From the human T2T-CHM13v2.0 reference genome, Homo sapiens, in assembly GCF_009914755.1 (NCBI RefSeq), contig NC_060925.1: 64,000 bases of DNA. One strand, given 5' to 3'. Below, one piece after another: positions 1 to 30,395 of this stretch (within the stretch, counting starts at the first letter, position 1; each line of letters opens with the position of its first letter). The translations under genes were made by a program, and so were the position numbers. The notes beneath the pieces were generated by a model. It was not told where the DNA came from and made no database searches. It saw only the letters and a list, made by a program, of their open reading frames with translations.

Positions 1-130
1 CACCTCCCAGGTTCAAGCAGTTCTCCAGACTCAGCCTCCTAAGTAGCTGGGATTATAGGCACCTGCCACCACGCCCAGCTAATTTTTGTATTTTTAGTGG
101 AGATGGGGCGTGAGCCACTGCTCCTGGCCT
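1..130 (-). mobile_element. Alu fragment
   Basis: Antisense Alu consensus with an internal deletion. Confidence 0.85.
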
Positions 131-554
131 TTAATGCTTCTTTTGTTCTAAACAAATGAAATGGTTTTTAAAAGTTCTCTTAGTATTGGTGCAAAACTTG
201 ATATGCTACAATTCACAAATTCAGAGATTATGACACTAAAAATTATTTTTATACTGGTATTTGACCAGAAATTAACAATTAGTTTTTTTTTAGAAACTGT
301 AAAAGCATCTGTTTTTGTTTTTAGTTCTACTTGACAAGAGATGACATTGCCTTTGGAGAAGAGAATGGACATCTTTCCAAAGCACCAAATTCTTATTGTG
401 GATGAAGTCAGCTCCTCATTGGTGAATTTATATAATGTGTACGTCTGTAACCTTTTGTACAAAGGTAATTTTTGTACCCCAAAAGTATGCATATTGGGCC
501 TCCAAGTTTTTTTAGAATCCATTAAACTTAAGAGATTCTTGACTTGAGTAACCA

Positions 555-585
<31 letters not shown>

Positions 586-631
586 GTGATGGAGGCATGA
601 GATGTGCAAAAGATTAAAAATGAGGTAGTGA

Positions 632-968
<337 letters not shown>

Positions 969-1254
969 CTATATTTATAAGGGAGTTGTGATTTGCAGCC
1001 CACCTAGAACGAAGCAGCTCTAATATGAATGTAAAGCTGTGCCCATCAGCCTGCAGTGTCCTCACCCAAACGCCACCTCCATGGTTTCTTCAAAATGCCA
1101 CTTGTTCTTGCAACGAAAGAGTATGTCTCCTAATAGCCCTGGCCCAGGAAGTGTTAGGAGCACGAGCATAGCATCACGTGATACCACCTACTTACTGAGA
1201 AAATACCAGACTCTAAATAATTTTAATTTTGCACTCACTTTGAGAAAATTTAAA

Positions 1255-1515
1255 AGGCAGAGTAGCGCTGCAGTTAATAATTTGAGCTTTGGAGTCGGAC
1301 CGATTTGGAACTAAATCTGGGCTGTGCTTCTCACTTGCAACTGCTCTTGTGACCTGGGGGACACGTTCCTTACTAAACCTTCTCTTTCCTCACCTGTGAA
1401 ATAGGGATAATAATAGTATCTACTTCATGAGGTTGTCATGAGACTTAAGTGGGAAAAGGTATATAAATTGCTTGGGATAGTGCCAGGTTCATAAGAAAGG
1501 CTCAGTGAATATTAA
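1255..1515 (+). mobile_element. MIR SINE
   Basis: MIR core-like ttcctcacctgtgaaatagggataataatagta. Confidence 0.75.
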
Positions 1516-1720
1516 CAAAAAATAACCATCACCTGGAGTTTTAAATCCAAGTTTAGAGAGACAGCAGAATATTTTCCTTCACCAAAGGATTCGCTAAGGA
1601 TTACTTTTAGAGAAAATACACATTTAAGAATTTGTTTACAGATCCATCTGGGGAGCAGTGAAGTTTATGAAGACATAAGATAAAACATGTTTAAGTTTCT
1701 GCAATTAGAAGAGAAGTATA

Positions 1721-2330
<610 letters not shown>

Positions 2331-3324
2331 AAAAGCATAGTTTGAAAGACAATAGTTCCACATATACAAAATATAGGAACCAAAGTTACCATCTGTTGAT
2401 CGCATGGATGTAAAAAGATGACATCAATTTTTATATAACACCAGGATGATGCCTTTTTTTCTCGAAGTATTTCAGAATGCATTAAATTTAAGAGATTCTT
2501 GACTTGAGGTGAACGCTATTATTTTTCCATGAGATATGGAATGATAAAAGCTGGGTAATGGCTAACACCACTTTGAATGGGCTGCTGATAAAGGAGAAAT
2601 ACTTCCTTGGGCTATTAGATTCATTTGAGAGCAAAGAGGCCAACTGTGGTATCTGGGGTCATCTTGTCATTATTGACACTATAGCACTGCTCTCTGTGTT
2701 TCTTACCATCTCCAGGTCACAAGGACAACCCCAGAGACGCACTCATAGAGAAACCCTGTGCTTGGGGTTTGTCAAGGGGACAAGGGTAAGTGAAAACACG
2801 AAAATGAAAGGGGTTATGGCTACTAGGAAGAACAGGGGAAAGGGTTAAAGGCAGAACTGGCAGTTTAAGAAACACTTTTCATTCAGAGTTCATCATCATT
2901 TACTGATATCATTTGGGGTCTGAATCCTCCTGATGGGTGAACAGTGAGGGGGAAAAATCAGCTTTTAGACTATTTCCAATTCAAATGGAAGCAAAAAGAA
3001 CTACAAGTTGCAAGAAATAGAGAAAAACCCCTTGATGTTGATTCTAGACCTAATTGTTTTAACTGTAAGTTAAATTGTGTTATTTTGTAAGTTACAACAA
3101 GGTTTCCTATGTGTTCTTTGGTGCCATCAGAAACAATCCAACACAGATGGCAACCTTCTTCACTGCTAGATTTCGCCTTAATTTTTAGACTATATGAACA
3201 TGAAAAAAGCCTTTTGCCCAAGAAATTGTGGAAATAATTTTGTGTGAAGGGGAGAGAGGGTCAAAACCAAAGATATTAATAAATGTCCTTAACTTTATTT
3301 GCCAAGTGCACTGGTTGAATATGT

Positions 3325-3550
3325 AGTGGGACAACATAGGCTTTGGAGCCATGCACATCTAAAATCCAATCTTGCTTCTGTCAGCTCTTCGCAAGTGAGC
3401 AAGTCACTCAACTTCTGAGCCTCTATGTTTTCATTTCTAAGCTAGATATAGAGGTATCACTCTCTCAGACAGTAGTTATGAGAATCAAATGAAAAAGCTT
3501 ATGTAAAGGGTCTTGCATAGTTCCTTTAGTGGATAATCAACAAACATTGG
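3325..3550 (+). mobile_element. MIR SINE
   Basis: caagtcactcaacttctgagcctc...atgagaatcaaatga. Confidence 0.7.
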
Positions 3551-5383
3551 CTCCTTCCATTGATTTCTGGCTGTTGTCATACCCAAAACTATTGTTGACT
3601 TCCAGTTGTGGAATCTCCTTCATAGTTATCTAGAGTATCCTACTTTTTATAAAATCATGTATGTCCCCTTAATCCAAATAATCTACTTAGCTAATTATCT
3701 TAAAACAAATTAGCTATTGACTAATAAAATATTATATGAATATAAAACATTGATTAATACTATGTTACAAATATAAAAATATTTAAAATAAAATCTTTTG
3801 TAAATCTAAACCCAAACCCCCTAGTTTTATCATTGACATCCTTCTTTTGCCATCATGACCTACCTGCTAGTCATGTGGCAGAAAAGTAGAGAGAATCAAG
3901 GTATCTGGACTGGGAGACACTATTACTATCACAAAATGAGAGGCTGTTTTGAATATTGAAATGAAGTCTGGAAGAGAACTAAGATTCTTGACCTCTGACA
4001 TGAAGTTATTGTACAACTTGGACCAGTTACAGAATTTCTGAGCCTTAGTTTCCTAATCTGTAAAATGCAAAGAATAGCCTCATACTACTTAGTGTATCTA
4101 GTTGATTTGAATATCAAATAAGATAATGAAGGTACAAATATATAGAAAAATAAAAGGCATTATTGCTGTAATTATGAAGCCATGGACCCACAACCAACAT
4201 GAGTTCTAGAAAGCAAGCACTGTATTTGTGGCCACCAGTATTTAAATGGGTCAGCTTAAGCTTCAGATTGCCTGGACCCCTCCCTGAACCCCTCCCTGCC
4301 TTCCTGTGGTAAGATATCCTGTTCCCTTTGTCCCCTTGGATACAGAGGTAGGCACGTACACCAATCACAGTCCCTCATGCCCTGATCACAATGCTTGGTT
4401 CAAGAGATGGGCACTTGACCCAAGATGGGCCAGAGTTCTTCTTTCGGAATTTTTCAAATGAACCTGGGAGAGAGGTTTCATTTCTTGTCTGGTCATTAAA
4501 CATGAGGATGTGACTTGGAGCCCCTGGTAATCCTGTCTTCCCCTGCTTCTTTCCAATACCCTTCAAACTGCAATAGGAGAGGAAGCAGAAAGAGCTGAGA
4601 GGCAGTGGTAGAGAATCTTTGCTTTCCTTCTTCAATTACGCTCCTAATTTGACTTTTGAATGCTGCACCCTCCTGGTTTTCCTTATATTTCATTGACAGT
4701 TTCCAAAACACTTACATTCTATTGTGTACCTGTAATTCTGAAAGTGGCTTAGCCACAGTTCTATATTCAAATTGATTTGATGCTCACCAACAGTCTTTTC
4801 ATACCATGGCTTTCCAATTTCTGAGCTCATCTTGATTCACATTTTGGTTGACTGGATTTCATCTAGTCTTTTTTTAAAAAAAGAAGAGCTCTTGGGTTAT
4901 CTACATATATATATTTGTTAATGTCATTATGTTGCCATTCATAAATGAGCAAAACTTAGATTAGATGGGTATGAAATTCATAGGTTCGTGTTTTATTTTA
5001 TTTCTGAGAACTGTATAGACATCTCATCATTGTATCTTGACATTGCATGTCGCTGTGGAAAAATCTGAATACAGCCTGATATTTGTCCTCAGGCTTTTTC
5101 TGCCTAGATGCCTGTGGGATTCTTTCTTTATTTTTGATATTTAGCAACTTCTCCAGAATGTATGTATGAATTATTCCATATCAATTTTCCCTTTTGGTAT
5201 GCAAATTTTTATCATCATTTAGTTCAGAAAAAAAATCTTCTATTATATCTTCGAATTTCTTTCATGGGGCACTTGTCTGCTTTCTACATCAGGAAACACC
5301 TAGTGTGTATATTATGCTGCATGTCTGCTCTTTGTTTTCCATATCTATTATCTGTCTTCCAGTTGCTTTAAATTCCTTGATGA

Positions 5384-5670
5384 GGCCAGGCACAGTGGCT
5401 CACGCCTGTAATCCCAACATTTTGGGATGCCAAGGCGGGCGGATCACTTGAGGTGTGGAGTTCAAGACCAGCCTGCCAACATGGCAAAACCCCATCTCTA
5501 CCAAAAATACAAAAATTAGTCAGGCGTGCTGGTGTGTGCCTTTAATCCCAGCTACTCGGGAGGCTGAGCACAAGAATCGCTTGAACCTGGAGGCGGAGGT
5601 TGCAGCGAACTGAGCTCGCGACACTGAACTCCAGCCTGGGTGACAGAGCAAGACTTAGTCTCAAAAAACT
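5384..5670 (+). mobile_element. AluS
   Basis: Alu consensus, short A tail. Confidence 0.9.
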
Positions 5671-7269
5671 AGAATAATTCCTTAATCAATTTCTCCACCC
5701 TGTCTTCTAGCTCACTGATGGTTTTCAGTGGTGCTTATTTTATGCCTCACTGCTTCCTATATGAGTTTCATTTCTGTAATGTTTGTTATCTTTTCCCTAG
5801 CCACCGGAGTTCTGACAGTTCATGTTCATTGTTTTATCTGAAAATTTCTTCTGTCACCTGGGGTAATTATTATTTTTCTTCAATGTATTTTTTCTTCTGC
5901 CTTTTTTGCTGGTTCCTTTTTTAACTTTTTCTTTGTAGTATCTCTATGTAGTTACCATGTTGGATCTTTGCTGATTATCATGCATCTTTGAGTGGGGCAC
6001 TTATATCCAAATCTGCTAACAGTGGGGGAAGGGGTTGAGGGATGGAACAAAATATGCTTCTTCCCATCAGGATAAGTCACTCTGGAGATGGCCTACATGG
6101 TTCACAATGGAGCTGCCCAGTGCAGTTTTTGATTTGTGTTAGGGGAACACTGCATTCCCCCAAGCTTCACATTTCCATGAGGGCGCCTCCAAAGGCCCAT
6201 CACTCTAGACATCTTTCTACCACTCCCCTGACTTTTCCCAGAGGCAGGATCGCTTCTCTGTCCAGTAAGCTTGGGAGAAAGAGTGCAGCATGCTCAGCTA
6301 TCCTCTTCTGGGACTTCTTTTTCAAATTTGCCTTCCCCAGGGACCTGCAATCCTGCTACATGAGAGAAGCTAACTGGGGCAGGTTTTGCCCTGTGGAGGG
6401 AGGCCTGGGACTGGGTGAGGAAGTTTAATTCTGGGGTGGACGATTAGGAAGCTCTTTGCCACTACATGTCTAAGCCATATCCTTCAATATCAGTAATCAG
6501 GTTAATATTTTATGTTCAACTGTCATCCATATCTTATGTTATCAATTGCTTCCAAACCTAGAAGAGTAAGAAATGGGTATTATTTATGTGTCCCTGAAGC
6601 CCTAACATATTGGTAAGTTGGCAGGAACCTTGAGAAAGATAAAGATGAGTATCTACAGGCCAAAGTAACCCATGGAGATTGAGCCTGTGGTAAGCAGCTG
6701 CCAGGTTTTAATGCTTCAGTAAGAGTGAGTCAGGCAGTCAGGCAGTATTTCAACCTTGGCAGGTCGCAGCAGCTTATTGGCTACAGAAGAATGCTGCTGT
6801 CGTAGCTATGGGGCTGTTTTAACAGACCTTAGTGAGCATGAGTTTTTAAGAGCAATTTTTATTACATGCTGCAGTATTACTGTGCAAAGAAAATGAGAGA
6901 GAGTAATTTGCTCTCAGAAACAACAGGCAGACTAAGCTAGAGGATTGGAGAGCTTTCTTGGGGCTAGAAAGATACAAAAAAGAAAAATGCCCACATATCT
7001 AAATACTCTTAAAAGGGGGATGAATTAGATGAGACTGGGGACTAGCAACCAAATAAATCTTTCAGAAGCAGGAAGGCAATATTTCAGATAGTTGCCTGGG
7101 ATTTGGAATGCACCTCTACCATCAGTGGGATACAGATCCAGGCAGCTATTAAAAGCTACCCTCTCAAAGCTGTGAATGCCATCCAAAATAAATGCAATTG
7201 GGGAATACAACAGTTATTCCATGACTGTCCTATCATTATGTGTTGGGTGTGTGGAGGGCAGGTCATGGG

Positions 7270-7578
7270 TTTCTTTTTTTTCCTTTTTTTTTCTTTGAGA
7301 CCAAGTCTCACTCTGTCGCCCAGGCTGCAGTGCAGTGGCCATGATCTTGGATCGCTGCAACCTCCACCCCCCCAGGTTCAAGTGATTCTCCTGCCTCAGC
7401 CTCCCAAGTAGCTGGGATTACAGGCACCTGCCACTGCGCCCAGCTGATTTTTGTATTTTTAGTAGAGAGGGGGTTTCACCATCTTGGCCAGGCTGGTCTT
7501 GAACTCCTGACTTCATGATCCACCCACCTCGGCCAGCCAAAGTGCTGGGATTACAGGTGTGAGCCACCACACCTGGCC
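7270..7578 (-). mobile_element. AluS
   Basis: Antisense Alu consensus. Confidence 0.9.
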
Positions 7579-7804
7579 CATTTCTTTCTTTACTTCACAG
7601 ATCTCCAAATCAAGAGGAAGATAACTCAAGGAGCTGTATCTGAGGAATTGTCCCAGAAGAGCCTCTTTAACCATGGACCCATTCAAGGTGACAAGATCCT
7701 GGACTTGGAGCTCATGCCGCATGGACTGAGATTTTAGGGATCTTAGGGAGGAGTGAGAGTCTTTTGCATGTGGAAGTGATGAGAATCATAGCCAAGGGGC
7801 AAAC

Positions 7805-8382
7805 CGGGCAGATTGTTTTTCTAAAGATGGCCATAATCATATCTCTACTCCACGTTCTCCTAGTCCACATGTTCTTCTACAGGGTGACCTTGATACGCCT
7901 TCCATTCAAAGGCCGACTCTATGTGCTTGACACTCCTTCCATCTTGTCACTTGCTTGCAATCCACAGACTCGAAGGTTGAATCAGAAAAGGCAATGGAGC
8001 TTCTACCTTGTTTGATGGAGCACTCATGCTTGAAACGCTGAGCCACCACACCCAATGTCCTGAGACCACCCTAGTGCAAGGAAGCCAAGACGCAAGGAGC
8101 AGTCACGTGTAGGTGGTCCAGCCAGCAGTCCTATACATTGAGACCTTCCAGCCCGGATGCCAGACCTATAAGTGAATGAGCCTTCAAGTGACTGCAGCCT
8201 CAAGCCATCAAGTCACCCCTAGCCTTTGAGTCTTCCCAGCTGAGGCCTCAGACATCGTGGAAGCACACAGCCTGTTCCCACTGTGTGCTTTCCAAATTCT
8301 AGCCCACTGAACCCCTGGGTTCATAAAACAATTGCTATTTTATGCCAGTACATTTGGGATGGTTTGTTATAGAGTAACTGGA
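7805..8382 (+). mobile_element. MLT1-family (MaLR) LTR
   Basis: MLT1-like ...ccagctgaggcctcagacat... and 3' end tttgggatggtttgttatag...aactggaa. Confidence 0.65.
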
Positions 8383-9326
8383 AGGGAGAACCACCATGTG
8401 AAAGATTGGGAAGCCGTACAAAGGGTCTATAAAGTTTGGAACTATAAGAGAGGAGAAGACAATGGATATTGGCATAGAATATTTAGGGTATTATTAGATG
8501 AGCTTCAAAACAAAATAGTTATTGTGGGGCAGGGTTTTCCCATGTCCTGAGTGAACAGATTAAAAAACAGACAAAGGTAGGATTCTCCTGACAGGCACAG
8601 GAAGGCCGAGACTTACTGAATGGGATCTAGGCAGGACAATAATAGTTTGAGTCCAGGCCTGGGTCGATTTTTGGTTTAATTGGAAAATGCCTTTCAAGTG
8701 AGACTATCTAACTCAGAGAGGTGAGGGTTGATCAGATTTGTTTGGACAACTGTTGCCTTTGGCAGACCCATAAAACCCTGACTTCATTTCTCTCACTGAG
8801 AGTAGAAAAAAATCTGTTTGAATAATAAATATCTGACCCAGAAAACCATGACAAAGTAAAAGGAAGAAAGTCCAATGAAAACGCCAGCCTACAGGAGGTA
8901 GAGAAGGAAAAAGACCAGCTTACGAACTTGATTAAACCATTAACAACCTAACTGAGCCTTCCTGAGAGGAGAAGGAGAACACAGAAGGAAATAAAACACG
9001 AGAAGCACGTTCCAAACTTCAGAATGAGACATTCAGTTGAATGATATGCTTGCAACCTTCAAAAGCTGTGGAAAGATAATGTTTGGAGGAGCATAAAGCA
9101 GAAACAACAAGACAAACTTGAAGCCTTCAAAACAGCTTCAGCTCAGGAGTTTGCTAAGGCTGAACTTCAGATGAATGTGAGCATGAGGGAGCAGCAGGAT
9201 TAGAAGCAGGATTCACAGGTCTAAGCAGTGCTAGAGCTACAGGCAGTCACAGCAGTGAGTATAGATGGTGCCCAAGTGTAGACAGAGCCCAAAGCAGGGG
9301 CTTCAAGTGGAAATGGAATTAAGGAC

Positions 9327-9522
9327 CTTCCTTCCCTTCCTTCCTTCCTCCCTCCCTTCCTCTCTGCCTTCCTCTCTTCTTCCCTTCCTTCCTTCCTTCT
9401 TTCTTTCATTCCTTCCTTCCTTCCTTCTCTCCCTCCCTCCTTTCCTTCCTCCCTTCCTTTCTCCCTTTCTCTCTCTCTCTCTCTCTCTCCCCCTCTCCCC
9501 TTCTCCCTCTCTCATCTCTTTC
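9327..9522 (+). repeat. (CCTT)n/(CT)n polypyrimidine microsatellite
   Basis: Directly visible. Confidence 0.95.
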
Positions 9523-10329
9523 ACATGCTGACTGGAAATGTACCACAAATAAAATCTGCAGCCCAGGATGTCACTGCTGCACATATCTAAACTCTGCAAG
9601 CAAGCAAGAATGTTTTCAATGTCACTCGCTGGGAAAGGATACCATGTGTTTACCAGATAGGAAAACTTGGTGCCATAATCGATCTCCTGTTGTGAAAGCT
9701 CTGCCAGTGGACCTAAGTACCCAGGTCTTGGCCCTGGCCAGGTCTGGCAGATACTGGCTGGTATCTTTGAGAGGCAAAAACCAAGAAGACTTCTTTCCTT
9801 TCTGAGTCTCTGCTGTGGCCATAAAAAGCAATAAAGATGGCCTGGTTTATAGTAAGTGCTAAATTCTGGTAATCTAAATTTTCCTATAACTGTTCTAGCT
9901 CTGGGATAAGGTTTCAGACTTTTTGAAATCTTCAGAAAGTGTGGCAGAAAATAAAAAATGTACTCAAAGGCCAAAAATGAAGTAAAAGTCAAAATCCAGA
10001 AAGGTAAGTTGAAGTCAGAATCTGACTTAAGAGCATCTGTCCAATAAAGACAAATGCTCTAGCCTTGAGTTTTGACAGCCACATGATCATGGATGTTATA
10101 AGAGACAAAACTGAGATCGATGCGAGATGGAGAGTTGGACCAGAGATCCCCTTACAAAGTTTGACTCCTTGATCAAAGGTTGAACCAAAATGAAATGAAC
10201 AATCAAATAAACAAACAAAAACCCGCTGCCCCAAAGGCGACAACAAGGAAACTTGAATCTGTTAGCCTTGGTTGTGGACATAGGGAAAACTACCTCCCAT
10301 GGGAAGTTGAAACTATAATGTGGTCTTCA

Positions 10330-13600
<3,271 letters not shown>

Positions 13601-15028
13601 AGGTGGAGAACATGAAAGTCTTGGTGCTAAACTTATGCAACTTTGGATGCCCTGAAGGAATGGCATCCATTCTAGTGGAAAACAATCCAGACTGAAACTG
13701 CTGAAGGAACTCCAACTCCACCAGGCATGAAACTATACTCAAACTGAGACTGTGCCCAAAAGAGGAAGCTTGGGGGTTTTGTGGTTTTACTTGCCTTTGG
13801 TCTTGCCTTTAGATTAATAACCAGTGGTTTTGATTTCTTTGGCTATTAATACATAAGTTCAAAGATATTTAATTTTGAAATTTAATTTTCTGTTATAATT
13901 TGATAATAGGAAGGGATTCATATTGCTAAAATTTGGGGCATTTTTATATTGCTGACATTGAATTGTTAGCATATCTTGATACTATCACTTTGTGTCACTA
14001 TATAATTGCCAATGAGCAATATTGAACATTTGGGGGCCTCAGAGTTAATTTAACTAGTATACTTACTCTTCTAACCCTTTTCAGTCATTGAGGGTATCTA
14101 AATTGCCAAACCTGTTCCAAAGGATGAAATCCAAAGGAAGCAGTGGTTGATATTGGGAGCACAAGCTTTATGGAAATGCAGCAGTACAGTCCTGATAAAC
14201 TGTTCATCTAGTCCTTCCAGGGGAGCCAGGAGTGAAGGGAACATAAATCTGGAGAGTGTTGGGGGAGACTGCCATTCCTCTTGTCTTGTGTTTCCATGAG
14301 ACGACCACCAGTGTAGCCTCCATTCCCTCCCCAGTCCCCATGTAAGTAGTCACTCTGAGGGTGGAAGGGTCTTCTCTCACTGGCGGGTTAGGTTGAAGAA
14401 ATGGATTAAGCCTGGCTCAGCCCTTCCTGGGCTTCCTCCTTCCAACTGCCTGCCCACTGAGAAGGCACATTCTCTCTGTTCCTGGGCCCACCCCTGCTCT
14501 TCCAGTTGTTGTGCTCTGCTTGTAAGAGGATAGGTGAGTTTACTCCACAGAATTAGTATTAGGAAGCCAATTGTGACATCCAAGCTACACTCTCCAAAAC
14601 AGCTTTTACCAAAAACACTGAGCTACTATTTTCATTGCTATTGGACTTTTATTCCTTATTTCTCAAGTAGTTCCAGATTTATGAATGAAGTTGTTTATTG
14701 GCCCCCAAAAGTCCCAACAATGTGCTCAACTGGCTCTGGTCAGCATGTGTGGAGCTAGTTGCTAGTTCTCCTCTTTCCTCTCCTTCATGACCTTAAGAGA
14801 GTTTCTTCAGGTAAAGAATTCTACAGAAAACAGATGGTCCATTCAGCCAGTTGCCCCTTCAACCTGACTTCTCTGCTGTTCCTTTGTAAGGAGCCAGCCC
14901 CTACCTCCCATTGACCTGATGTAAGGATCATCTTTATTTTATTTCCTATTAAGCTGATACATTTTTAAAGATCTCATGGCAGATGAAGAACAAGAGCATA
15001 GGTATACTTTATCAAAAACTACATCCTC

Positions 15029-15320
<292 letters not shown>

Positions 15321-15355
15321 TTACCTCCTCAAAATTCTCTAAAGACACCTATTCA

Positions 15356-17570
<2,215 letters not shown>

Positions 17571-18136
17571 AAAAATTGGTGTATTTCATAATCATCAGAG
17601 ACAGTTGTACACAATGTTTTCAAAAAGCCACAATGACTATTGTCTCCATCAAAAGAACAAGAAAGAGGCAAAAAATTAGAAATATAATGTCTCCATCTTG
17701 TAAACAGCTAGCCAATAAGAAAACCAAAATAATAAGCTTACTTTCACCCTACCTTCCTGAAAAATCAAGCTTCTCAGCAAAGAAAATGGGGAGTATCATT
17801 ATTCACTAGACAGGACTGCAGGAAAATATTCAAGAGGCAAACTATCTGTTGACAGAAGAGAGGTGCAGTAATACAAAGTCCAGCTCTAACATCAACTTTG
17901 GGTTAGCCATAAAACGGTTGATGCCTCAGTTTCTTCATCTGTATCTTGGAAATTACAGTCTAGTATATGAGCCACATTTGCATTATTTCAATGAGCTACA
18001 TATTGACATTGCATTACCATTAAAGCAGTTTAAAATATGTAGTTTTAAAAGTACAAGTAATGGCCTGCTACAAAATGCCATCTTGAGCACTGAAAGATGG
18101 GGAAGCTAACATTTACAAGAGCCTTCTTAAAAATCT

Positions 18137-19680
<1,544 letters not shown>

Positions 19681-19979
19681 AATATATATTTTTGTTACTG
19701 GTCTATGCTCCTTCTGGTTCATCCCACAAGAGATGCCACTAACCCATCATCAAAACAACACATGTTTTGTACGGTTTGTAGAAATAGTGATGGATCTGCT
19801 GTAACCATATATATGATTAACAATAATAAGAGTCTTGGCAAGGATAAGGTGGCCTGCCAGTTTGTGGATGTGAAATAGAGCAGAGACCTTGTCTGCCAAG
19901 GGATCTTACTAATATTTCATTAGTTCCTCTTCCCTTCAGCCCTTGGACAATCACTACCAGCCACCACCACCACCACCAA

Positions 19980-20180
19980 TGTTACCATTTATTGAGTGTT
20001 CAGTGTATTCCAAGTACTGTGTTGAGTACTTTACACAAATAATATAATTTCATTCTTGCAACATCTCTAAGAGACAGATATTACCAGATTTACAGATGAA
20101 GAAACTGAGGTTTAGAAAGTTTAAGTGACTTTTTGGAGGTCATCTAGCTACTGGAATTAGGATTCAACTTATGGTATGTT
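19980..20180 (-). mobile_element. MIR
   Basis: atttacagatgaagaaactgaggtttagaaagtttaagtgact. Confidence 0.75.
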
Positions 20181-21092
20181 CATTTGCACATTTTAATATG
20201 CCCTTTTGTGATTATTGCCAAATAACTTTCCACAGTCCATAACTGTTTTCCTCTCTGAGGGGAGCCAAGTAGAGTAGAGTCTTTAATTAAGGGCCTGGAC
20301 TCAAAGTTTTAATTTCTTTGTACCCTACTATTAACTAGCTGTATGATTGTGGATTTGTCTGAACCTGTTTTCCTTGTCTAAACAATGGAAATAAATAGCA
20401 AGTATTCTCTCTAGCTAATTATTTTGTACAGTTCTTCAAATGTATGTGATATGATGCTGTTAATTATTCTCTCTATACTCTGACAAAGACTGACAATGCA
20501 CAGATGTCAATATAAACTCATTTTTCATTAAAATTTACCTGATATCAGTCATAGCAGCCTCTGCACATTGGAAAAAAAAATTACTAAGAACAAAGAGATG
20601 GTCTCTTTAACTTCTTTTTTCTTCAGTTGAATTTGGTTTCACAAATGTGAAATAGCACCTATTTTTCTATCTTCCTTTAATCTTTCTTATTTACTCCCCG
20701 TAACTAATCCAGACCCCTTCACGGGACAACAAGAGAAGTAAGAGGTTAGGTAAGCTGTCAGGAACGTAGCAAAAGAGCTGTGAGGGAATTTATTAGGTCT
20801 CTACCATGGGACAGATACTGTGATCTGTGGTGTGTGCATTCTTATCACCGAATCCTCATGTGGAAGTTAATTGATCAACAGCTGTGACAGTGCTTGGAAA
20901 ACAATGGTTACTGTCAGATATAGACAAAATGCAAAGTAAAGCTGGTGGGAATTAAGCATCATGTTTCTTTAAATTATTTAATAATTATCACAAATTCCCA
21001 ATCATTACCATTCTGCCTCCGATCTAGAAAGGGAACTCAGGTAACCTATGCCTAGAAAACCTTCCCTTTTCTAGTTTGAAAAGCCACCTTCA

Positions 21093-21768
<676 letters not shown>

Positions 21769-22102
21769 TCAAATTTTATTTACTCCATAGTATTTGCTAC
21801 TGGTAGAGAGACAGCAAATTCCCCTTTGCCTCTCCTAAAATTCTTGGCCTTGCCTACTCTGCTTGTCACTGAATAAAATTTCCTCTATGACAAAAGGAAA
21901 CCTGACTTGTTTCAGCGGCTACAGGACTGTCCACGTGAAAAGCCCATGTCAGGCTATAGTACTGAGTCTTAACTAGAAGCTTGCATGAGCAACTAATCAG
22001 CAGTGTGTTAAAACCTTCTGCAACAATACACTTTGCTGGATGCTGTGCTGTCACTGCCTCTAGCGAGTTGGTTGGAGAAACATAATGCCAGAACCGTGAT
22101 TA

Positions 22103-22466
<364 letters not shown>

Positions 22467-25400
22467 TTAAATTCAAAGGAAAGGCATTTTTTTAAGAAAA
22501 AAATACTTTAAAATAATTAACAGATATTTCTGATATAAATGTATCATTTGTACATGATATAAATGGCAGGCCCCGTCTATCCCAGACAGAAAAAGACGCA
22601 AAATAGAGCAGAAGCCATCCTACTAGAAAAGTGAGCTGTACAAGGTCACCTTTAGGTTAAAATAAAGGCCACTGTACAGCAAGGTTATTCGTACAGTACA
22701 AGGCAAGGGCATGGAGGGTTTTGGTAGCTTGATTCTAAAGAAACTTCAGGTCTGAAAAAATAACTAAAAATAAGACTTAAACATGAAAGATAACAAGAAA
22801 ATCAAGGAAAATCAAATAAAGTAAGCAAGGAATAGGAAAACGTATAAACGTTAACAAAAGGAGTCCCTAAGCCTAGAGAAAGAAACTGGCTCGTGACAAG
22901 TATCTCCTGCGATCTGGACCTACATGTTGTTTCCACCCCTTCAACCTTTCCCCTACTCCCTTCCCCGAAACACATGCACACACAAAGCCATCGACCATTG
23001 TGGACTTTAACCCTATTTTGTTTGTTTGTCTTTTACTTAATGCTCGTATTTTTTACTTTTTTCACTTTGCCTCTCACTTTAGCCAAAAATACTGGCTCTA
23101 CCATCACCTGAACTTCCTCACACCTTTTAGAGTCAGGGGTGACCTCCCACCGGCTAGATCTGGATCTAAGACTTCCAAGTTTTCTCATCTCAGCTAAATC
23201 TTCCAGACATTCTTTTCTCGCAGGTTTTAAAAATTTTCTGGTTCTGTATGTCTGATTCTCCAGTATAACTTTTTTCATGAATCCCAGGGATATTTAAAGT
23301 CTTACCTATATATAGTTTGTTCTATTATATTTAATTTAAAGTTAGTGGTCTTGATTTTTTTTACTTTCCATGATCTCAAACATCAAATATTATGAATTCA
23401 ATTTCTACACCAGATAGATAAGCAGAACAAGTAAAACATCCACAAAACCTGGGGGAGACTGAAGGCTTGTTAAGCAAAATCTCTAGTTAGAGATTCCACA
23501 AAAGAAGTGATACATTACTGGATTCTGATCATGAAGCCAGGCGGTACCAGGAGTTGTTTTATAGGCACTGCCATGTGCTATAAGCTAGGGTTCTAGACTT
23601 ACAGAAATTCTTTATCCTAAGTTTAGGTTGAATCTTTTGAAATCAAGAGTCTTTCCCTCTCATAGTTTATAACTCCTTTTATAAATATGGATGGATTAAT
23701 CATATTTGTTCTTAAAATGTGAGCCAATTGATATCAGGTTAATGTCAATTTATGATGTTCATCTGATGCAATATTTATTCTTTTCTTTAAACCAATTTAG
23801 ATGATGGGAAGAATACCAAAATGTATGGTTCAGAAAAGGTGATACATAACTGCAGACATAAATGCTAACAAGCCAAACAGCTGTCCTAAAGGAATTTGGC
23901 AAGTTTAAACACTAAAATTTCTTTTCTTTTTCTTTTTTCTTCTTTTTTAGTGACAGGGTCTCACTCTGTCACCCTGGCTGAAGTGCAGTGGTGTGATCAT
24001 AGCTCACTGCAGCCTCAAACTTCTGGGCTCAAGTGATCCTCCTGCCTCAGTCTCCTCAAGTCTAGGATTACAGGCATGAGCTGCTGTACACAGCCTAAAA
24101 TTTCTAATAGAAGAATTTAACAACACCAAAAGCTGCCAAAATAATAATGGTAACATAGAACATGGATCTTAAAGCGTGAGTCACACGTGTATTGTACCTA
24201 TCACTATTTAAACTAGAACACTATATAGAATCAAATACTTCACAACAAGCTAGATACTCTTAGAATTAAGCCAGCAGAAACCCATATGGCTGGACCAGAC
24301 ACTGTGGCACACACCTATAATCCCAGTGCTTTGGGAGGCCAAGCAGGTGGATCACTTGAGCTCAAGAGTTCGAGACCAGCCTGGCCAACATGGCGAAACC
24401 CTGTCTCTACTAAAAATAAAAATTAAAAAAAAAAAAAGAAGAAAAGAAAAAAAAGAAACCCATATGGTTGGAGTGAAACATTTGTCTTAAGCCTCTTGTT
24501 ATCTCAGCATGAACATACACATTGGAAAATACCACTTCCCAAACAAAAGCTTAACTAAGACCTATCCAGTAATAATTCAATTTTATAAAAATAGAACTAT
24601 GGTGTGTACCAAGTTTCATACTGGTCAGAGTCAGACCGTTTACCTAAATTGCTTTTGTTATGTGCAGGTAAATGTTGTATGTCAAGAATGAAGGCAAAAT
24701 CAGAACTGTTATGTGACAATCAAAAATATAATGGTAATGTCAACACTAATCATTTGAAATCATCTCTCTTGCCTTAAATTTATACCTAGCAATAAAAAAT
24801 ATATATTTGTCTTATATGAAATATGTGAATTTCATGATCTGGAAGCTCTAGTAGTAATTTTCACGATGATTGATGTAGCCATAGCATAGGGTCTCAAGTT
24901 AACAATGAATTTTCCTTTACAAAAGATGAGGCCCAAATTCAGTGATTCATTAACTCAAATAAAAATCTAGACTCTAGTTTCTAATTTATTTTTATGTTTA
25001 CCACATCCTACAGATACTCTCATAACATATGTTCTACCAACAGGAAAATCGACACAGAGGTAGGATAAAGGACCGGCTCCAACTGACGTAATTTATAATA
25101 GTAGCAAAGACAGGGAATCAAATAAAAAATGCAGCTTAGCCTCTGAGGTCCCCATACTCAGTTATATAATGGCCCAGCTACTGAGAGAAAACTCTTCAGC
25201 ATCAAATAAGGAAATATTTGAAATTTTTAAAAATTCATATGAGCTATTAGAATTAAATACTGGATTGCCATGTAGTTTAAAGGCTTGCATTGTGATTTCA
25301 AAAATAATTTATATTTATCAAGTGCCTACTAAATACTAAATAAGTTACTTAGCATTTCTCTCAGTCCTTATTAACTCCATATTACAGGTAGAGAAACATG

Positions 25401-26326
25401 CTAGGTGAAGTAACTTGACTATTGCCCTGTGCTGGAACCATAATTTGAATCTATTCATGCTATATGACTTCTTTTATAAAAGCACTAAAAATTTCTCTTC
25501 TGTAAGAACTTTCTGATACATATATACTTACAAACACCTCTTGTGGCAATAAATTAAAGAAACATGATTCCATCTTAAAAAAAAGCATCTTTTAGATATA
25601 TTGTTCTCTTCCAAGATTTAATTCCATTCTTTTGACAGATAATCTAATAAGTTTGGTACTCACACTTAAGTCTCTCCTAAAGATTCTCATGTAAATTGTC
25701 CTGTTTCTCAAACAGAACAGACGTATGCAATAAATAAGTGCAAATTTTCCTTTCAAAAACTAGCCCATTTACTGGACTATCTTCTTTATTTTTTCTCTCG
25801 CCATTTTACATACCATTCCTCAAATATATTCCTAACAGTTAATCAGCGTACCTGATTGTCTGATACTGTGCTCTTTGTAAATTGGTTATGTAGCCCAGTA
25901 CTTTTAAACATATTTTATGGAGACATTAACTTTTTTTTTAATTCAAACATAGCCATGTCACATATGGGTAAACAACAGTGAATCACTTAAAGAAGACTGC
26001 CACATCCACCGTCTTTCCAATCGCTCTCTCTGTGGCTACGATTAGTGCCTTTACTTCCTCTCTGCGTGCCTGAAGACACTTTTTCATTCCCTGTGAGTAA
26101 AAATTCGAGAAGTCCTCCCAACATTGAAGCAAACTGCTGCTACCCTACTCACAAGGAACCTCAAACTAAAGGCAACTCTTCTGAGAAAGGTCGATTGTAA
26201 AATCACAGGGACAAAAGGCTGACCCAAAGACTCGGGCCCCTTTGGATAGCACCACAAAGGCCCCCTCAGACAGCACCTGCCAGGACTCTCACCAAATTTA
26301 CTGCCACCCTCTGAGTAGCTATTTAC

Positions 26327-26777
26327 CTGCTTCCATGTCTCCCTGGGGCTTGGGTGCTGCGCAGTAACAGCAGTCCAAGAAGATGACATAGTTAAGAACA
26401 TTGAAGAACAGACCGATAATTCCAGCACTGAGAACCAGTATCGGCTCCTCTGTCTTCTGGGGATTGATGTACCTTTTGATGGCTTCAACCAGGATGCTGA
26501 ACATCAGCGCCACCGCAAAAATGGTGTTCCCAAATGCTCCCACAACATCTGCCCGAAGAAAGCCGTAAGTGCTCTTCTTGTGCTGTTTTATGTTACTGGC
26601 CCTTACACCAAAAAAACCTATGATCATGGACACAAAGTGGGAAAGGACGGCAAAAGCATCGGAGGCCAAGGAGAGGGAGTTGCCAACGTAAGCGATCACT
26701 AGTTCCATCACAAAGAGGAGGATGCTAACGACGCACATGAGGATTAAACGGAAGCTTCTTCCGGAGTATCGCCCCAT
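26327..26777 (-). CDS. SLC30A10: ZnT/SLC30 (CDF family) first coding exon, TM1-TM4; probable alternative, duplicated exon 1 of SLC30A10
   Basis: MGRYSG start, GNSLSLASDAF, TYGFLRADVVGA and VEAIKRYINP are SLC30A1/A10 signatures. Kozak GCCGCCATGG. 451 nt ending GCA G|GTAAAT (phase 1). SLC30A10 is the known neighbour downstream of EPRS1 on the same strand. Confidence 0.85.
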
Positions 26778-26917
26778 GGCGGCTCGGTGCCCTGGCAGTT
26801 CCTCTCCCTTTCTTGGGAAGGCTGAGCTGCTAGGGAAGCAGCTATAGATTCAGTGATTACAACTCCTGGGTAACTCTTCCCTTCAGCCCTCCGGCGCTTG
26901 TCATATTTGGAAATCAC

Positions 26918-26926
26918 CTTTTATAG
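26918..26926 (-). promoter_or_regulatory. TATA box of the upstream ZnT exon
   Basis: CTATAAAAG on the minus strand about 140 nt upstream of the ATG; no upstream ATG between the predicted TSS (about 26895) and the start codon. Confidence 0.6.
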
Positions 26927-27577: not shown

Positions 27578-30395
27578 ATGTGATGTTAATTTTGTATGTC
27601 AACTTGACTGGTCATTTGGTCAATGACATGCAAGACTTTCTGGCTTTGTCTGTGAGTGTGTTTCTGGATGAAATTAACAGTTGGATCAGCAGAGTGAATG
27701 AAGGAGATTGCCCTCACTAATGTGGGTGGGCCTCCTCCAATCAGTTGAAGCCTGAGTAGAACAAAAATGCTGAATAAGAGGTAGCTCTTCCTGCCTGACT
27801 GCCTTCAGCCTGGGACGTTTGTTTTTTCCTGCCTTCAGACTCAAACTGAAACATGGACTCTTCCTGGGTCTTGAGCGTGTGGGTCTTTGATTTGGGCTAC
27901 ACCATCGGCTCTCCTGGGTCTCTTGCCTACTGATTCACCATCAATCTTGGGACTTCTTAGTCTTTTAATCATGTGAAATAATTCTTTATAATACATTTCT
28001 TTATATATATATATAAACATATATAAATATATATATAAATATATATAAATATATATAGATATATATAAATATATATAAATATATATAGATATATATAAAT
28101 ATATATAGATATATAGATATATAAATATATATAAATATATAGATATATATAGATATATAAATATATATAAATATATATAGATATATAAATATATATAAAT
28201 ATATATAGATATATATAGATATATATAAATATATATATATATAGATATATATAAATATATATAGATATATATAAATATATATAGATATATATAAATATAT
28301 ATAGATATATATAAATATATATAGATATATATAAATATATATAGATATATATAAATATATAGATATATAAATATATATAGATATATATAAATATATAGAT
28401 ATATAAATATATATAGATATGTATAAATATATAGATATATAAATATATATAGATATATATAAATATATATAGATATATATAGTTATATATAAATATATAA
28501 ATATATAAATATATAAATATATATAAATATATAAATATATAAATATATATAAATATATATAAATATATAAATATATATAAATATATATAAATATATAAAT
28601 ATATATAAATATATATAAATATATATAAATATATAAATATATATAAATATATATAAATATATAAATATATATAAATATATAAATATATATAAATATATAT
28701 ATAAAAATATATATAAATATATAAATACATATAAATATAAATAAATATATAAATATATATAAATATATATAAATACATAAATATATATAAATATATATAG
28801 ATATATAAATATATAGATATATATAAATATATATAGATATATAAATATATAGAGATATATAAATATATATAGATATATAAATATATAGAGATATATAAAT
28901 ATATATAGATATATATAAATATATAGAGATATATAAATATATATAGATATATATAAATATATATAGATATATAAATATATATAGATATATATAAATATAT
29001 ATAGATATATAAATATATATAGATATATATAAATATATATAGATATATAAATATATATAGATATATATAAATATATATAGATATATAAATATATATAGAT
29101 ATATATAAATATATATAGATATATAGATATATAGATATATATAAATATATATAGATATATAGATATATAGATATATATAAATATATATAGATATATAGAT
29201 ATATAGATATATATAAATATATATAGATATATAGATATATAGATATATATAAATATATATAGATATATAGATATATAGATATATATAAATATATATAGAT
29301 ATATAGATATATAGATATATATAAATATATATAGATATATAGATATATAGATATATATAAATATATATAGATATATAGATATATAGATATATATAAATAT
29401 ATATAGATATATAGATATATAGATATATATAAATATATATAGATATATAGATATATAGATATATATAAATATATATAGATATATAGATATATAGATATAT
29501 ATAAATATATATAGATATATAGATATATAGATATATATAAATATATATAGATATATAGATATATAGATATATATAAATATATATAGATATATAGATATAT
29601 AGATATATATAAATATATATAGATATATAGATATATAGATATATATAAATATATATAGATATATAGATATATAGATATATATAAATATATATAGATATAA
29701 ATATATATAAATATATATAAATATATATAAATATATAAATATATATAAATATATATAAATATATATAAATATATATAAATATATAAATATATATAAATAT
29801 ATATAAATATATATAAATATATAAATGTATAAATATATAAATATATATAAATATATATATAAATATATAAATATATAGAAATATATATAAAAATATAAAT
29901 ATATATAAATATATATGAATATATATATAAATATATAAATATATATAAATATATATAAACATATAAATATATATAAATATATATAAATATATAAATATAT
30001 AAATATATATAAATATATAAATATATAAATATATATAAATATATAAATATATATAAATATATATAAATATATAAATATATATAAATATATAAATATATAT
30101 AAATATATAAATATATATAAATATATGTAAATATATAAATAAATAAATATATATAAATATATATAAATATATAAAAATATATATAAATATATAAAAATAT
30201 ATATATAAATATATATATAAATATATAAATATATATAAATATATATATAAATATATAAATATATATAAATGTATATATAAATATATAAATATATATAAAT
30301 ATATAAAGTATATATAAATATATATATATAAAACTATCTGTGTACCATGCATACACATTCTCATTGGTTCTGTTTCTCTGGAGAACACTGGCTAA
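27578..30395 (+). mobile_element. MLT2 (ERVL) solo LTR split by the AT-rich expansion
   Basis: Starts tgtgatgttaattttgtatgtcaacttgactgg, ends ttggttctgtttctctggagaacactggctaata, both MLT2 termini. Confidence 0.85.
28000..30332. repeat. 2.3-kb AT-rich micro/minisatellite of A(A/G)(AT)n units with a perfect 36-bp higher-order core (about 29100-29695)
   Basis: Unit AAATATATAT-AGATATAT-AGATATAT-AGATATATAT; sequence lines recur every 180 nt. Confidence 0.97.

What the first reader, a model, noticed from the sequence alone, without database searches (positions are those of the whole stretch)
26327..26926. Duplicated alternative first exon giving a second SLC30A10 N-terminal half
Seen: an intact 150-codon exon with TATA box, ideal Kozak and phase-1 GT donor. 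No further ZnT exons (TM5-6, C-terminal domain) were found in the 26 kb downstream. Knowledge (recalled): canonical SLC30A10 starts MGRYSGKTCRLLFML and its exon 1 also ends phase 1 at ...NVA-G; roughly half of the first 50 residues are identical. Inference: two paralogous promoter-plus-exon-1 cassettes splice onto shared exons 2-4, similar to UGT1A or protocadherin variable exons. This would give an isoform of about 422 aa with different TM1-4 and a much shorter TM4-5 loop. A transcript from this exon may already be in gene catalogues, but the protein appears uncharacterised.
Basis: partly seen in the sequence, partly recalled or inferred. Interest (0 to 1): 0.85.

Follow-up and report, generated by a model that had tools for sequence, protein, structure and literature searches.

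The report
Duplicated first exon of manganese exporter
The human manganese-exporter gene SLC30A10 carries a second, duplicated first exon, conserved from frogs to humans, that is predicted to swap four of the protein's six membrane helices and likely yields a little-studied isoform that handles metals differently.

Summary
Confirmed. Window 26777-26327 (-) is an intact 150-codon exon ("1B"), 45% identical to canonical SLC30A10 exon 1 ("1A"), whose start codon lies 30.5 kb downstream. Both donors are phase 1. Joined in silico to the only human set of exons 2-4, 1B gives an open 422-aa protein. The gibbon version models onto the SLC30A10 cryo-EM structure (TM-score 0.90). Gene models with this junction exist in mammals, birds, reptiles and amphibians, and eight short unnamed contigs encode the spliced rodent-like form. 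N-terminal halves split into 1A and 1B groups, while C-terminal halves mix by lineage, as shared exons predict. New here: 1B keeps E25, D40 and N127, but carries His at Asp47 (222 of 225 homologues). D47A abolishes Mn transport in the canonical protein, and 133 of 137 further representatives keep Asp. So 1B is likely not a redundant Mn exporter; its substrate is untested. The exon is already in RefSeq, and the architecture is a known kind (CLDN10, ASIC1, GCNT2). But the event is missing from the 2021 catalogue of 236 such human events, and I found no paper on it. No human junction read or peptide could be checked.

The parts
26918..26925 (-). TATA-like element TATAAAAG, 148 nt upstream of the ATG (function not shown)
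   Evidence: the motif is common in the window
26778..26857 (-). 5' UTR of exon 1B as annotated in RefSeq; no ATG in this stretch
   Evidence: annotation supplied with the finding; (nearest upstream ATG at 26904)
26774..26783 (-). Consensus Kozak context and start codon (ATG 26777-26775)
   Evidence: only match in the window
26327..26777 (-). Coding part of alternative first exon 1B: 150 codons + 1 nt, TM1-TM4 of a CDF/ZnT transporter
26658..26660 (-). Asp40 codon (Mn ligand in canonical SLC30A10; kept)
   Evidence: 225 of 225; PMC12480533
26637..26639 (-). His47 codon, in place of canonical Asp47
   Evidence: His in 222 of 225; Asp in 133 of 137 further representatives
26400..26402 (-). Asn126 codon (= canonical Asn127, Mn ligand; kept)
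   Evidence: 221 of 225
26321..26329 (-). Phase-1 splice donor CAG|GTAAAT
   Evidence: 53 of 72 short homologues read G-K/N at this place
1..26326 (-). Window part of the predicted 31,368-nt intron from 1B to exon 2. Beyond the window start lie canonical exon 1A (coding part G000:C1:219166290-219165651, inside this intron) and the shared exon 2 (219164958-219164881), exon 3 (219156380-219156141) and exon 4 (coding part from 219153835)
   Evidence: loci L004, L005

Best explanation
This is a tandem duplicate of SLC30A10 exon 1, at least as old as the frog-mammal split, that likely splices from its own promoter onto the shared exons 2-4 and is predicted to give a 422-aa transporter likely differing from the canonical Mn exporter in metal preference or gating. 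Shown: the intact exon, the phase match, the in-frame join, a single human set of exons 2-4, conservation across tetrapods, and the residue pattern. Inferred: (1) transcription from the 1B promoter skips exon 1A, which lies in a 31-kb intron (supported by short rodent-like spliced contigs; not seen in human here); (2) TM1-4 from 1B pack with the shared TM5-6 and C-terminal domain into a normal CDF protomer (predicted model); (3) the TM2/TM5 'site A' changes from N43-D47/H244-D248 to A43-H47/H244-D248. That removes the acid proposed to recruit Mn2+ at the cytoplasmic face and puts two His and one Asp together, so a softer ion such as Zn2+, or pH-dependent transport, is the likeliest outcome. 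Confidence in the architecture alone is about 0.93; the figure below is for architecture plus altered transport.
For: In-frame 422-aa product, 411 of 422 identical to the gibbon model. One set of exons 2-4 in the human genome. Of 214 fetched homologues with both anchors, 191 have the short spacing of this isoform. Eight unnamed 402-417-aa proteins on contigs of 1,601-5,591 bases carry the junction; the human exons span about 43 kb. Human vs frog identity is 91/136 for 1B and 110/137 for 1A, against 58-67 between paralogues. N-half tree: 13 1B sequences plus P0299 group at 100/99 inside the ZnT10-type sequences. C-half tree: a frog-type 1A protein nests among frog 1B proteins at 100/98. Model pLDDT 78.9; TM-score 0.90 (target-normalised) and rmsd 2.4 A to 9KVX. 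H47 in 222 of 225 against D47 in 22 of 23 1A-type representatives. D47A abolishes and D47N/E reduce Mn transport; N43A has no effect (PMC12480533). Disease variants D40A, L89P and del105-107 all fall in exon 1A, so an intact 1B does not rescue patients.
Against: No human junction read, CAGE peak, tissue or peptide was available. Most homologues are automated gene models whose join may be propagated between species. E25 and D40 are invariant and N126 is at least 90% conserved across the whole family alignment, so keeping them does not show Mn or any other transport. H47 could be offset by other 1B-specific residues. Three homologues lack H47 (2 Gln, 1 Asn). Failure to rescue patients could simply reflect expression outside liver and gut. 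The structural match is expected from 62-63% identity and says nothing on substrate. The C-half tree is poorly resolved (14 of 23 forks open).
Confidence: 0.52

Rival explanations
1. Same architecture, but the 1B isoform is still a Mn2+ exporter. It is used in another tissue or stage, or trafficked differently because of its shorter TM4-5 loop, and other 1B-specific residues compensate for His47.
For: All four Mn ligands (D40, N127, D248, S252) and E25/S39 are kept (TM5 H/D/S in 217 of 225). N43A is tolerated. The promoters differ in type: GC 0.46 and CpG o/e 0.30 for 1B against 0.69 and 0.71 for 1A.
Against: D47A abolishes transport, and even D47N/E reduce it. M44 and C93, which also affect transport, are changed to V and M in 224 of 225 each. 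Lesions limited to exon 1A give full disease.
Confidence: 0.2
2. Same architecture, but the 1B isoform transports little itself and acts as a partner subunit. It would dimerise with the canonical protein through the shared TM5-6 and C-terminal domain and tune its trafficking or activity, as ZnT6 does for ZnT5 (analogy recalled).
For: SLC30A10 is a homodimer and the C-terminal domain is identical in both isoforms. The site-A motif is non-canonical (A43/H47).
Against: Strong constraint over TM1-4 (65 of 136 columns at least 95% conserved in 214 homologues), including cavity residues, fits an active pathway. There is no evidence that the two isoforms are co-expressed.
Confidence: 0.2
3. The exon is a relic or a stand-alone truncated gene: not spliced to exons 2-4, or not translated in human.
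For: Some annotators call it a separate short 'zinc transporter 10-like' gene. No human read was seen. Read through, it ends two codons after the donor.
Against: The human frame is intact, and the frog exon is 91/136 identical. The donor position is conserved (53 of 72 short homologues). Spliced contigs exist. RefSeq extends the gene to 26857 (supplied annotation). TM1-4 alone would lack TM5-6 and the C-terminal domain.
Confidence: 0.06
4. It is the first exon of a separate full paralogous gene with its own downstream exons.
For: 45% identity is typical of old paralogues.
Against: There is no second set of exons 2-4 in the window or in the human genome search. C-terminal halves mix by lineage.
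Confidence: 0.02

Closest known systems
SLC30A10/ZnT10 canonical isoform (485 aa, PDB 9KVX; PMC12480533)
   Same: Shared exons 2-4; same predicted six-helix CDF fold (TM-score 0.90); E25, S39, D40, N127, H244, D248 and S252 kept.
   Different: TM1-4 only 45% identical; N43A, M44V, D47H, L89A, C93M; 63 aa shorter (62 in the TM4-5 loop); (L/M)DCC(Y/F)C motif after TM4; promoter region is not a CpG island; no functional study found.
N-terminal tandem exon duplication-derived substitutions (PMC8373072: 39 N-terminal events of 236, including CLDN10, CLDN18, ASIC1, ASIC2, GCNT2, ATP10B)
   Same: Two homologous first coding exons, each presumably with its own promoter, swapped onto common 3' exons; old vertebrate origin.
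   Different: SLC30A10 is not in that catalogue (0 hits for SLC30 in the supplement; control SLC7A2 found). Here the swap replaces four of six helices and half of the metal site. That CLDN10a/b differ in ion selectivity is recalled, not checked.
UGT1A and clustered protocadherin variable first exons (recalled)
   Same: Paralogous promoter-plus-exon-1 cassettes spliced to constant exons.
   Different: Only two cassettes were found; no array, and no sign of stochastic promoter choice.
SLC30A1/ZnT1 (HDHD zinc site)
   Same: Nearest paralogous gene; 36-39% identical over TM1-4.
   Different: 1B has Ala at 43 and His at 47 where ZnT1 has His and Asp; 1B branches among ZnT10-type sequences, not with ZnT1.

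Membership tests
N-terminal tandem exon duplication-derived substitution | Two homologous 5' coding exons in tandem in one locus | tested here: met
   45% identity, E 3.6e-31, start codons 30.5 kb apart, same strand
N-terminal tandem exon duplication-derived substitution | Both donors join the same downstream exon in frame | tested here: met
   451 and 640 nt, both phase 1; open products of 422 and 485 aa
N-terminal tandem exon duplication-derived substitution | Downstream exons are shared, not duplicated | tested here: met
   one set in human; C-halves mix by lineage
[quoted passage not shown]
   Eight short rodent-like contigs encode the spliced form and RefSeq lists the exon (supplied annotation); no human read could be examined
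N-terminal tandem exon duplication-derived substitution | Own promoter; protein detected | not testable with these tools
   Needs CAGE and proteomics; the TATA and Kozak motifs are only suggestive
CDF/SLC30 transporter (ZnT10 branch) | Cation_efflux TM domain plus cytoplasmic C-terminal domain, six-helix fold | tested here: met
   (PF01545 + PF16916 on most full-length homologues)
CDF/SLC30 transporter (ZnT10 branch) | Branches with ZnT10 rather than ZnT1 | tested here: met
   outgroup including ZnT1 separated at 100/100; exact position within the ZnT10 group unsure (long branches)
SLC30A10-type Mn2+ exporter | Mn ligands D40, N127, D248, S252 | tested here: met
   but D40 and N127 are family-wide
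SLC30A10-type Mn2+ exporter | Acidic residue at TM2 position 47, needed for Mn transport | tested here: not met
   His in 222 of 225; D47A abolishes transport (PMC12480533)
SLC30A10-type Mn2+ exporter | Measured Mn2+ efflux | not testable with these tools
   bench assay needed
Zn-selective ZnT (HD-HD site A) | His43 and Asp47 in TM2 | tested here: not met
   Ala43 in 213 of 225, His47 in 222 of 225
UGT1A/protocadherin-type variable-exon cluster | Array of many variable first exons | tested here: not met
   only two copies found

The most novel reading that the evidence does not exclude
SLC30A10 is in effect two transporter genes in one. Exon 1B encodes an eleventh vertebrate ZnT pore with an A-H/H-D metal site seen in none of the non-1B sequences examined, kept since at least the first tetrapods and possibly since bony fishes. 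It moves a different ion from Mn2+ (for example Zn2+, or a metal in a pH-gated way) and can form mixed dimers with the Mn exporter. This would bear on the old disagreement over whether ZnT10 carries zinc, on exon-1-only versus whole-gene knockout phenotypes, and on patient genotype-phenotype differences.
Probability: 0.3. Interest if true: 0.85.

Novelty: new member of a known kind. Interest (0 to 1): 0.66.

Why it matters
SLC30A10 is the disease gene for hypermanganesemia with dystonia 1 and the main Mn exporter. A second isoform with different TM1-4 changes how existing data are read. One widely used floxed mouse allele targets 'exon 1'; if that is the canonical exon, as I assume, 1B is left intact. 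Published qPCR primers in exons 3-4 cannot tell the isoforms apart. Variants in exon 1A spare 1B, variants in exons 2-4 hit both, and variants in 1B look non-coding on the selected transcript. The exon is also a natural experiment on CDF metal selectivity: a constant TM5-6 paired with two long-diverged TM1-4 halves that differ at a residue shown to be essential. All of this is directly testable with one cDNA and isoform-specific primers.

Tried and rejected
The first AlphaFold model, from 61 close homologues, was poor (pLDDT 50; rmsd about 11 A) and was discarded in favour of the 102-sequence model. The first residue census used a motif filter that dropped 11 of 225 proteins and guaranteed D40; it was repeated without the filter. 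Promoter motifs: two MRE cores and a DR3-like site lie 230-290 nt upstream of the TATA, but the MRE core occurs 45 times in the window and several motifs were tried, so this is a lead only. A tandem 1B+1A fusion protein (frog model P0004, treeshrew model P0005) is seen in 2 models only and is treated as a likely annotation artefact; I did not test it. The fish origin is unresolved: no fish appeared among the named hits listed (only the best 120 of 273 and of 248 were shown in the first two), and P0299 is unnamed. dN/dS was not possible because no orthologous DNA is held. No complex prediction was run, because a shared dimer domain would pass by likeness to solved structures. Literature: ten searches gave no paper on this exon. 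The accession used was recalled and is unverified. The supplement held for PMC9741552 did not contain the control gene either, so it is uninformative. One scanned supplement of PMC13429693 was unreadable, bioRxiv supplements are closed, and subscription papers are not searchable.

Full report
OBSERVATION. On the minus strand an ATG at 26777, in the window's only GCCGCCATGG context, opens 150 codons plus one base to a CAG|GTAAAT donor at 26327. The peptide matches Pfam Cation_efflux over residues 11-130 (E 4e-20) and, best among solved structures, human SLC30A10 (E 2e-33). A search of the whole genome gives three matches: this exon, canonical SLC30A10 exon 1 (45% identity, start codon 30.5 kb downstream) and a third locus at 36% that I take to be SLC30A1. 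I call the new exon 1B and the canonical one 1A. A TATAAAAG lies 148 nt upstream of the ATG, but the pattern is common here (433 matches), so it carries little weight. At DNA level 1A and 1B barely align (66% over 120 nt, E 0.01), which fits an old duplication.

GENE STRUCTURE. I fetched the 30 kb beyond the window start and mapped exons with tblastn. 1A is 640 nt and 1B 451 nt, both phase 1, and both donors end in GCAG. Exons 2 and 3 are 78 and 240 nt with canonical AG/GT ends. Joined in silico, 1A gives the known 485 aa (control) and 1B gives an open 422 aa, 411 of 422 identical to a gibbon gene model. The 1B intron is 31,368 nt and contains 1A. The 500 nt upstream of 1A look like a CpG island (GC 0.69, CpG o/e 0.71); those upstream of 1B do not (0.46, 0.30). 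A genome search with the full isoform finds only one set of exons 2-4. The supplied RefSeq table lists 26327-26857 as an exon of another SLC30A10 transcript; it does not say whether that transcript is coding.

CONSERVATION. Two searches (best 120 of 273 shown, best 120 of 248 shown) returned 225 distinct proteins, mostly 410-422-aa models named SLC30A10 or ZnT10, many as 'isoform X2'. They come from placentals, marsupials, birds, turtles, squamates, frogs, a caecilian and a newt. Of 214 with both anchor motifs, 191 have the short spacing of this isoform. Eight unnamed 402-417-aa proteins, close to the named murid model, carry the junction on contigs of only 1,601-5,591 bases. The human exons span about 43 kb, so these are best read as spliced cDNA, or less likely retrocopies; the meaning of the source label 'lgn' is recalled. 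A third search for short proteins gave 72 hits. In 53 of 72 the frame reads G-K or G-N at the exon end, as expected from a conserved G|GTAA-type donor. Human vs frog identity is 91/136 for 1B and 110/137 for 1A, while 1A vs 1B comparisons give 58-67, so the duplication predates the frog-mammal split.

TREES. A search of 1.84 billion representatives (best 150 of 3,421 shown) gave 13 top hits with 65-86% identity, then a gap (one further 1B fragment, P0373, ranks lower), then P0299. P0299 is an unnamed 391-aa full-length protein with His47, closer to 1B (143 bits) than to 1A (118). In a tree of N-terminal halves (38 rows chosen by me), 13 tetrapod 1B sequences plus P0299 group at 100/99 on a long stem inside the ZnT10-type sequences; the ZnT1-containing outgroup separates at 100/100 (long-branch warning for P0299). 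In a tree of C-terminal halves (26 rows; 6 dropped for lack of the anchor motif, 2 trimmed), the 1A/1B split disappears. A frog-type 1A protein nests among frog 1B proteins (100/98) and a mammal-type 1A protein among mammal 1B proteins (92/78), though 14 of 23 forks are open. That is what shared 3' exons predict, with the caveat that gene models partly build it in. P0299 falls outside the sampled tetrapod 1B group in the N-half tree and may be a fish; this is unconfirmed.

STRUCTURE. The gibbon isoform, folded with a 102-sequence alignment, gave pLDDT 78.9 and pTM 0.73, with four helices from 1B (7-32, 35-61, 74-104, 112-137), two from the shared exons and the alpha/beta C-terminal domain. It matches inward-facing SLC30A10 9KVX at TM-score 0.90 (target-normalised) and rmsd 2.4 A. 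This shows that the parts are compatible, not what is transported.

METAL SITE. PMC12480533 (parts 1-3 of 8 read; supplement searched) places Mn2+ on D40, N127, D248 and S252, with E25 and M44 supporting. N43A and H244A have no effect, D47A abolishes transport, D47N/E reduce it, and S39 and C93 mutations impair it. In the 225 1B homologues E25, S39 and D40 are invariant and N127 is kept in 221. Position 43 is Ala in 213, position 44 Val in 224, position 47 His in 222 and position 93 Met in 224. The TM5 His/Asp/Ser triad is present in 217 of 225. Among the 137 further representatives, 133 have Asp at 47, as do 22 of 23 1A-type ones. E25 and D40 are invariant and N126 nearly so across the whole family alignment, so keeping them does not indicate Mn. 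The discriminating change is A43/H47. A Cys cluster after TM4 (C136 in 222, C137 in 223 of 225) is unexplained; lipid modification or metal binding are guesses.

MECHANISM. Most likely a separate promoter drives 1B in a restricted tissue, splicing skips 1A, and the product is a normal CDF protomer. In it, site A (A43-H47/H244-D248) has lost the acid proposed to recruit Mn2+ and gained a second His. I put 0.52 on an active transporter with changed ion preference or pH gating, 0.2 on a Mn exporter used elsewhere, 0.2 on a modulatory dimer partner, and 0.08 on relic or separate gene. Genetic support for non-redundancy is indirect: D40A, L89P and del105-107 lie in 1A, leave 1B intact, and still cause disease. 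Tissue separation would explain this equally well.

KNOWN VERSUS NEW. The architecture is a known class. PMC8373072 (passages; supplement) lists 39 N-terminal events among 236, including CLDN10, CLDN18, ASIC1, ASIC2 and GCNT2, but no SLC30 gene (control SLC7A2 found). PMC9741552 (passages) does not name SLC30A10 in its main text. The predicted protein is already in automated annotation of many species. Ten full-text searches (listings and abstract starts seen) found no paper describing the isoform. Keyword passages in PMC12596596, PMC13094726, PMC13272668, PMC8316433, PMC13035577, PMC12264432, PMC5524415, PMC8061520, PMC13429693, PMC11141921 and PMC12827705 showed none either; only up to 12 passages per paper are shown, and subscription papers are not covered. 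The preprint 10.1101/2022.02.21.481385 (passage) states that the floxed mouse allele flanks exon 1, and two mouse papers use qPCR primers in exons 3-4, which cannot separate the isoforms.

VERDICT. This is a real, deeply conserved alternative first exon of a disease gene. It is catalogued but apparently unstudied, and it carries a near-invariant substitution at a residue essential for the canonical activity. New member of a known kind; interest 0.66. Human expression and substrate remain open.

Noticed in passing
window 28002-30330: A 2.3-kb AT-rich tandem array (TA and TATAAA units) about 1.1 kb upstream of the exon-1B TATA; it produces spurious long ORFs. It may be length-polymorphic next to this promoter.
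   Followed up: no
window 27218-27212 and 27154-27148 (-), 27165: Two metal-response-element cores (TGCACAC) and a DR3-like site 230-290 nt upstream of the TATA; the core occurs 45 times in the window, so this is weak.
   Followed up: partly
window 26904 (-): An ATG opening a short upstream ORF lies between the TATA and the RefSeq 5' end; it would matter only if transcription starts upstream of it.
   Followed up: no
window 26372-26361 (-): A conserved Cys cluster directly after TM4 in 1B (C136 in 222, C137 in 223, C139 in 206 of about 225); role unknown.
   Followed up: partly
P0004, P0005: A frog and a treeshrew gene model fuse 1B and (part of) 1A in one chain; probably an annotation artefact.
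   Followed up: no
P0299: An unnamed 391-aa full-length protein of the 1B type, sister to the tetrapod 1B group; it may push the duplication back before tetrapods.
   Followed up: partly
P0200: The pika model has Gln instead of His at position 47; 3 of 225 homologues lack the His.
   Followed up: no
window 15769-16683 (+): A 304-codon ORF inside a repeat-masked stretch (15443-17387) of the 1B intron, probably a transposable-element remnant.
   Followed up: no
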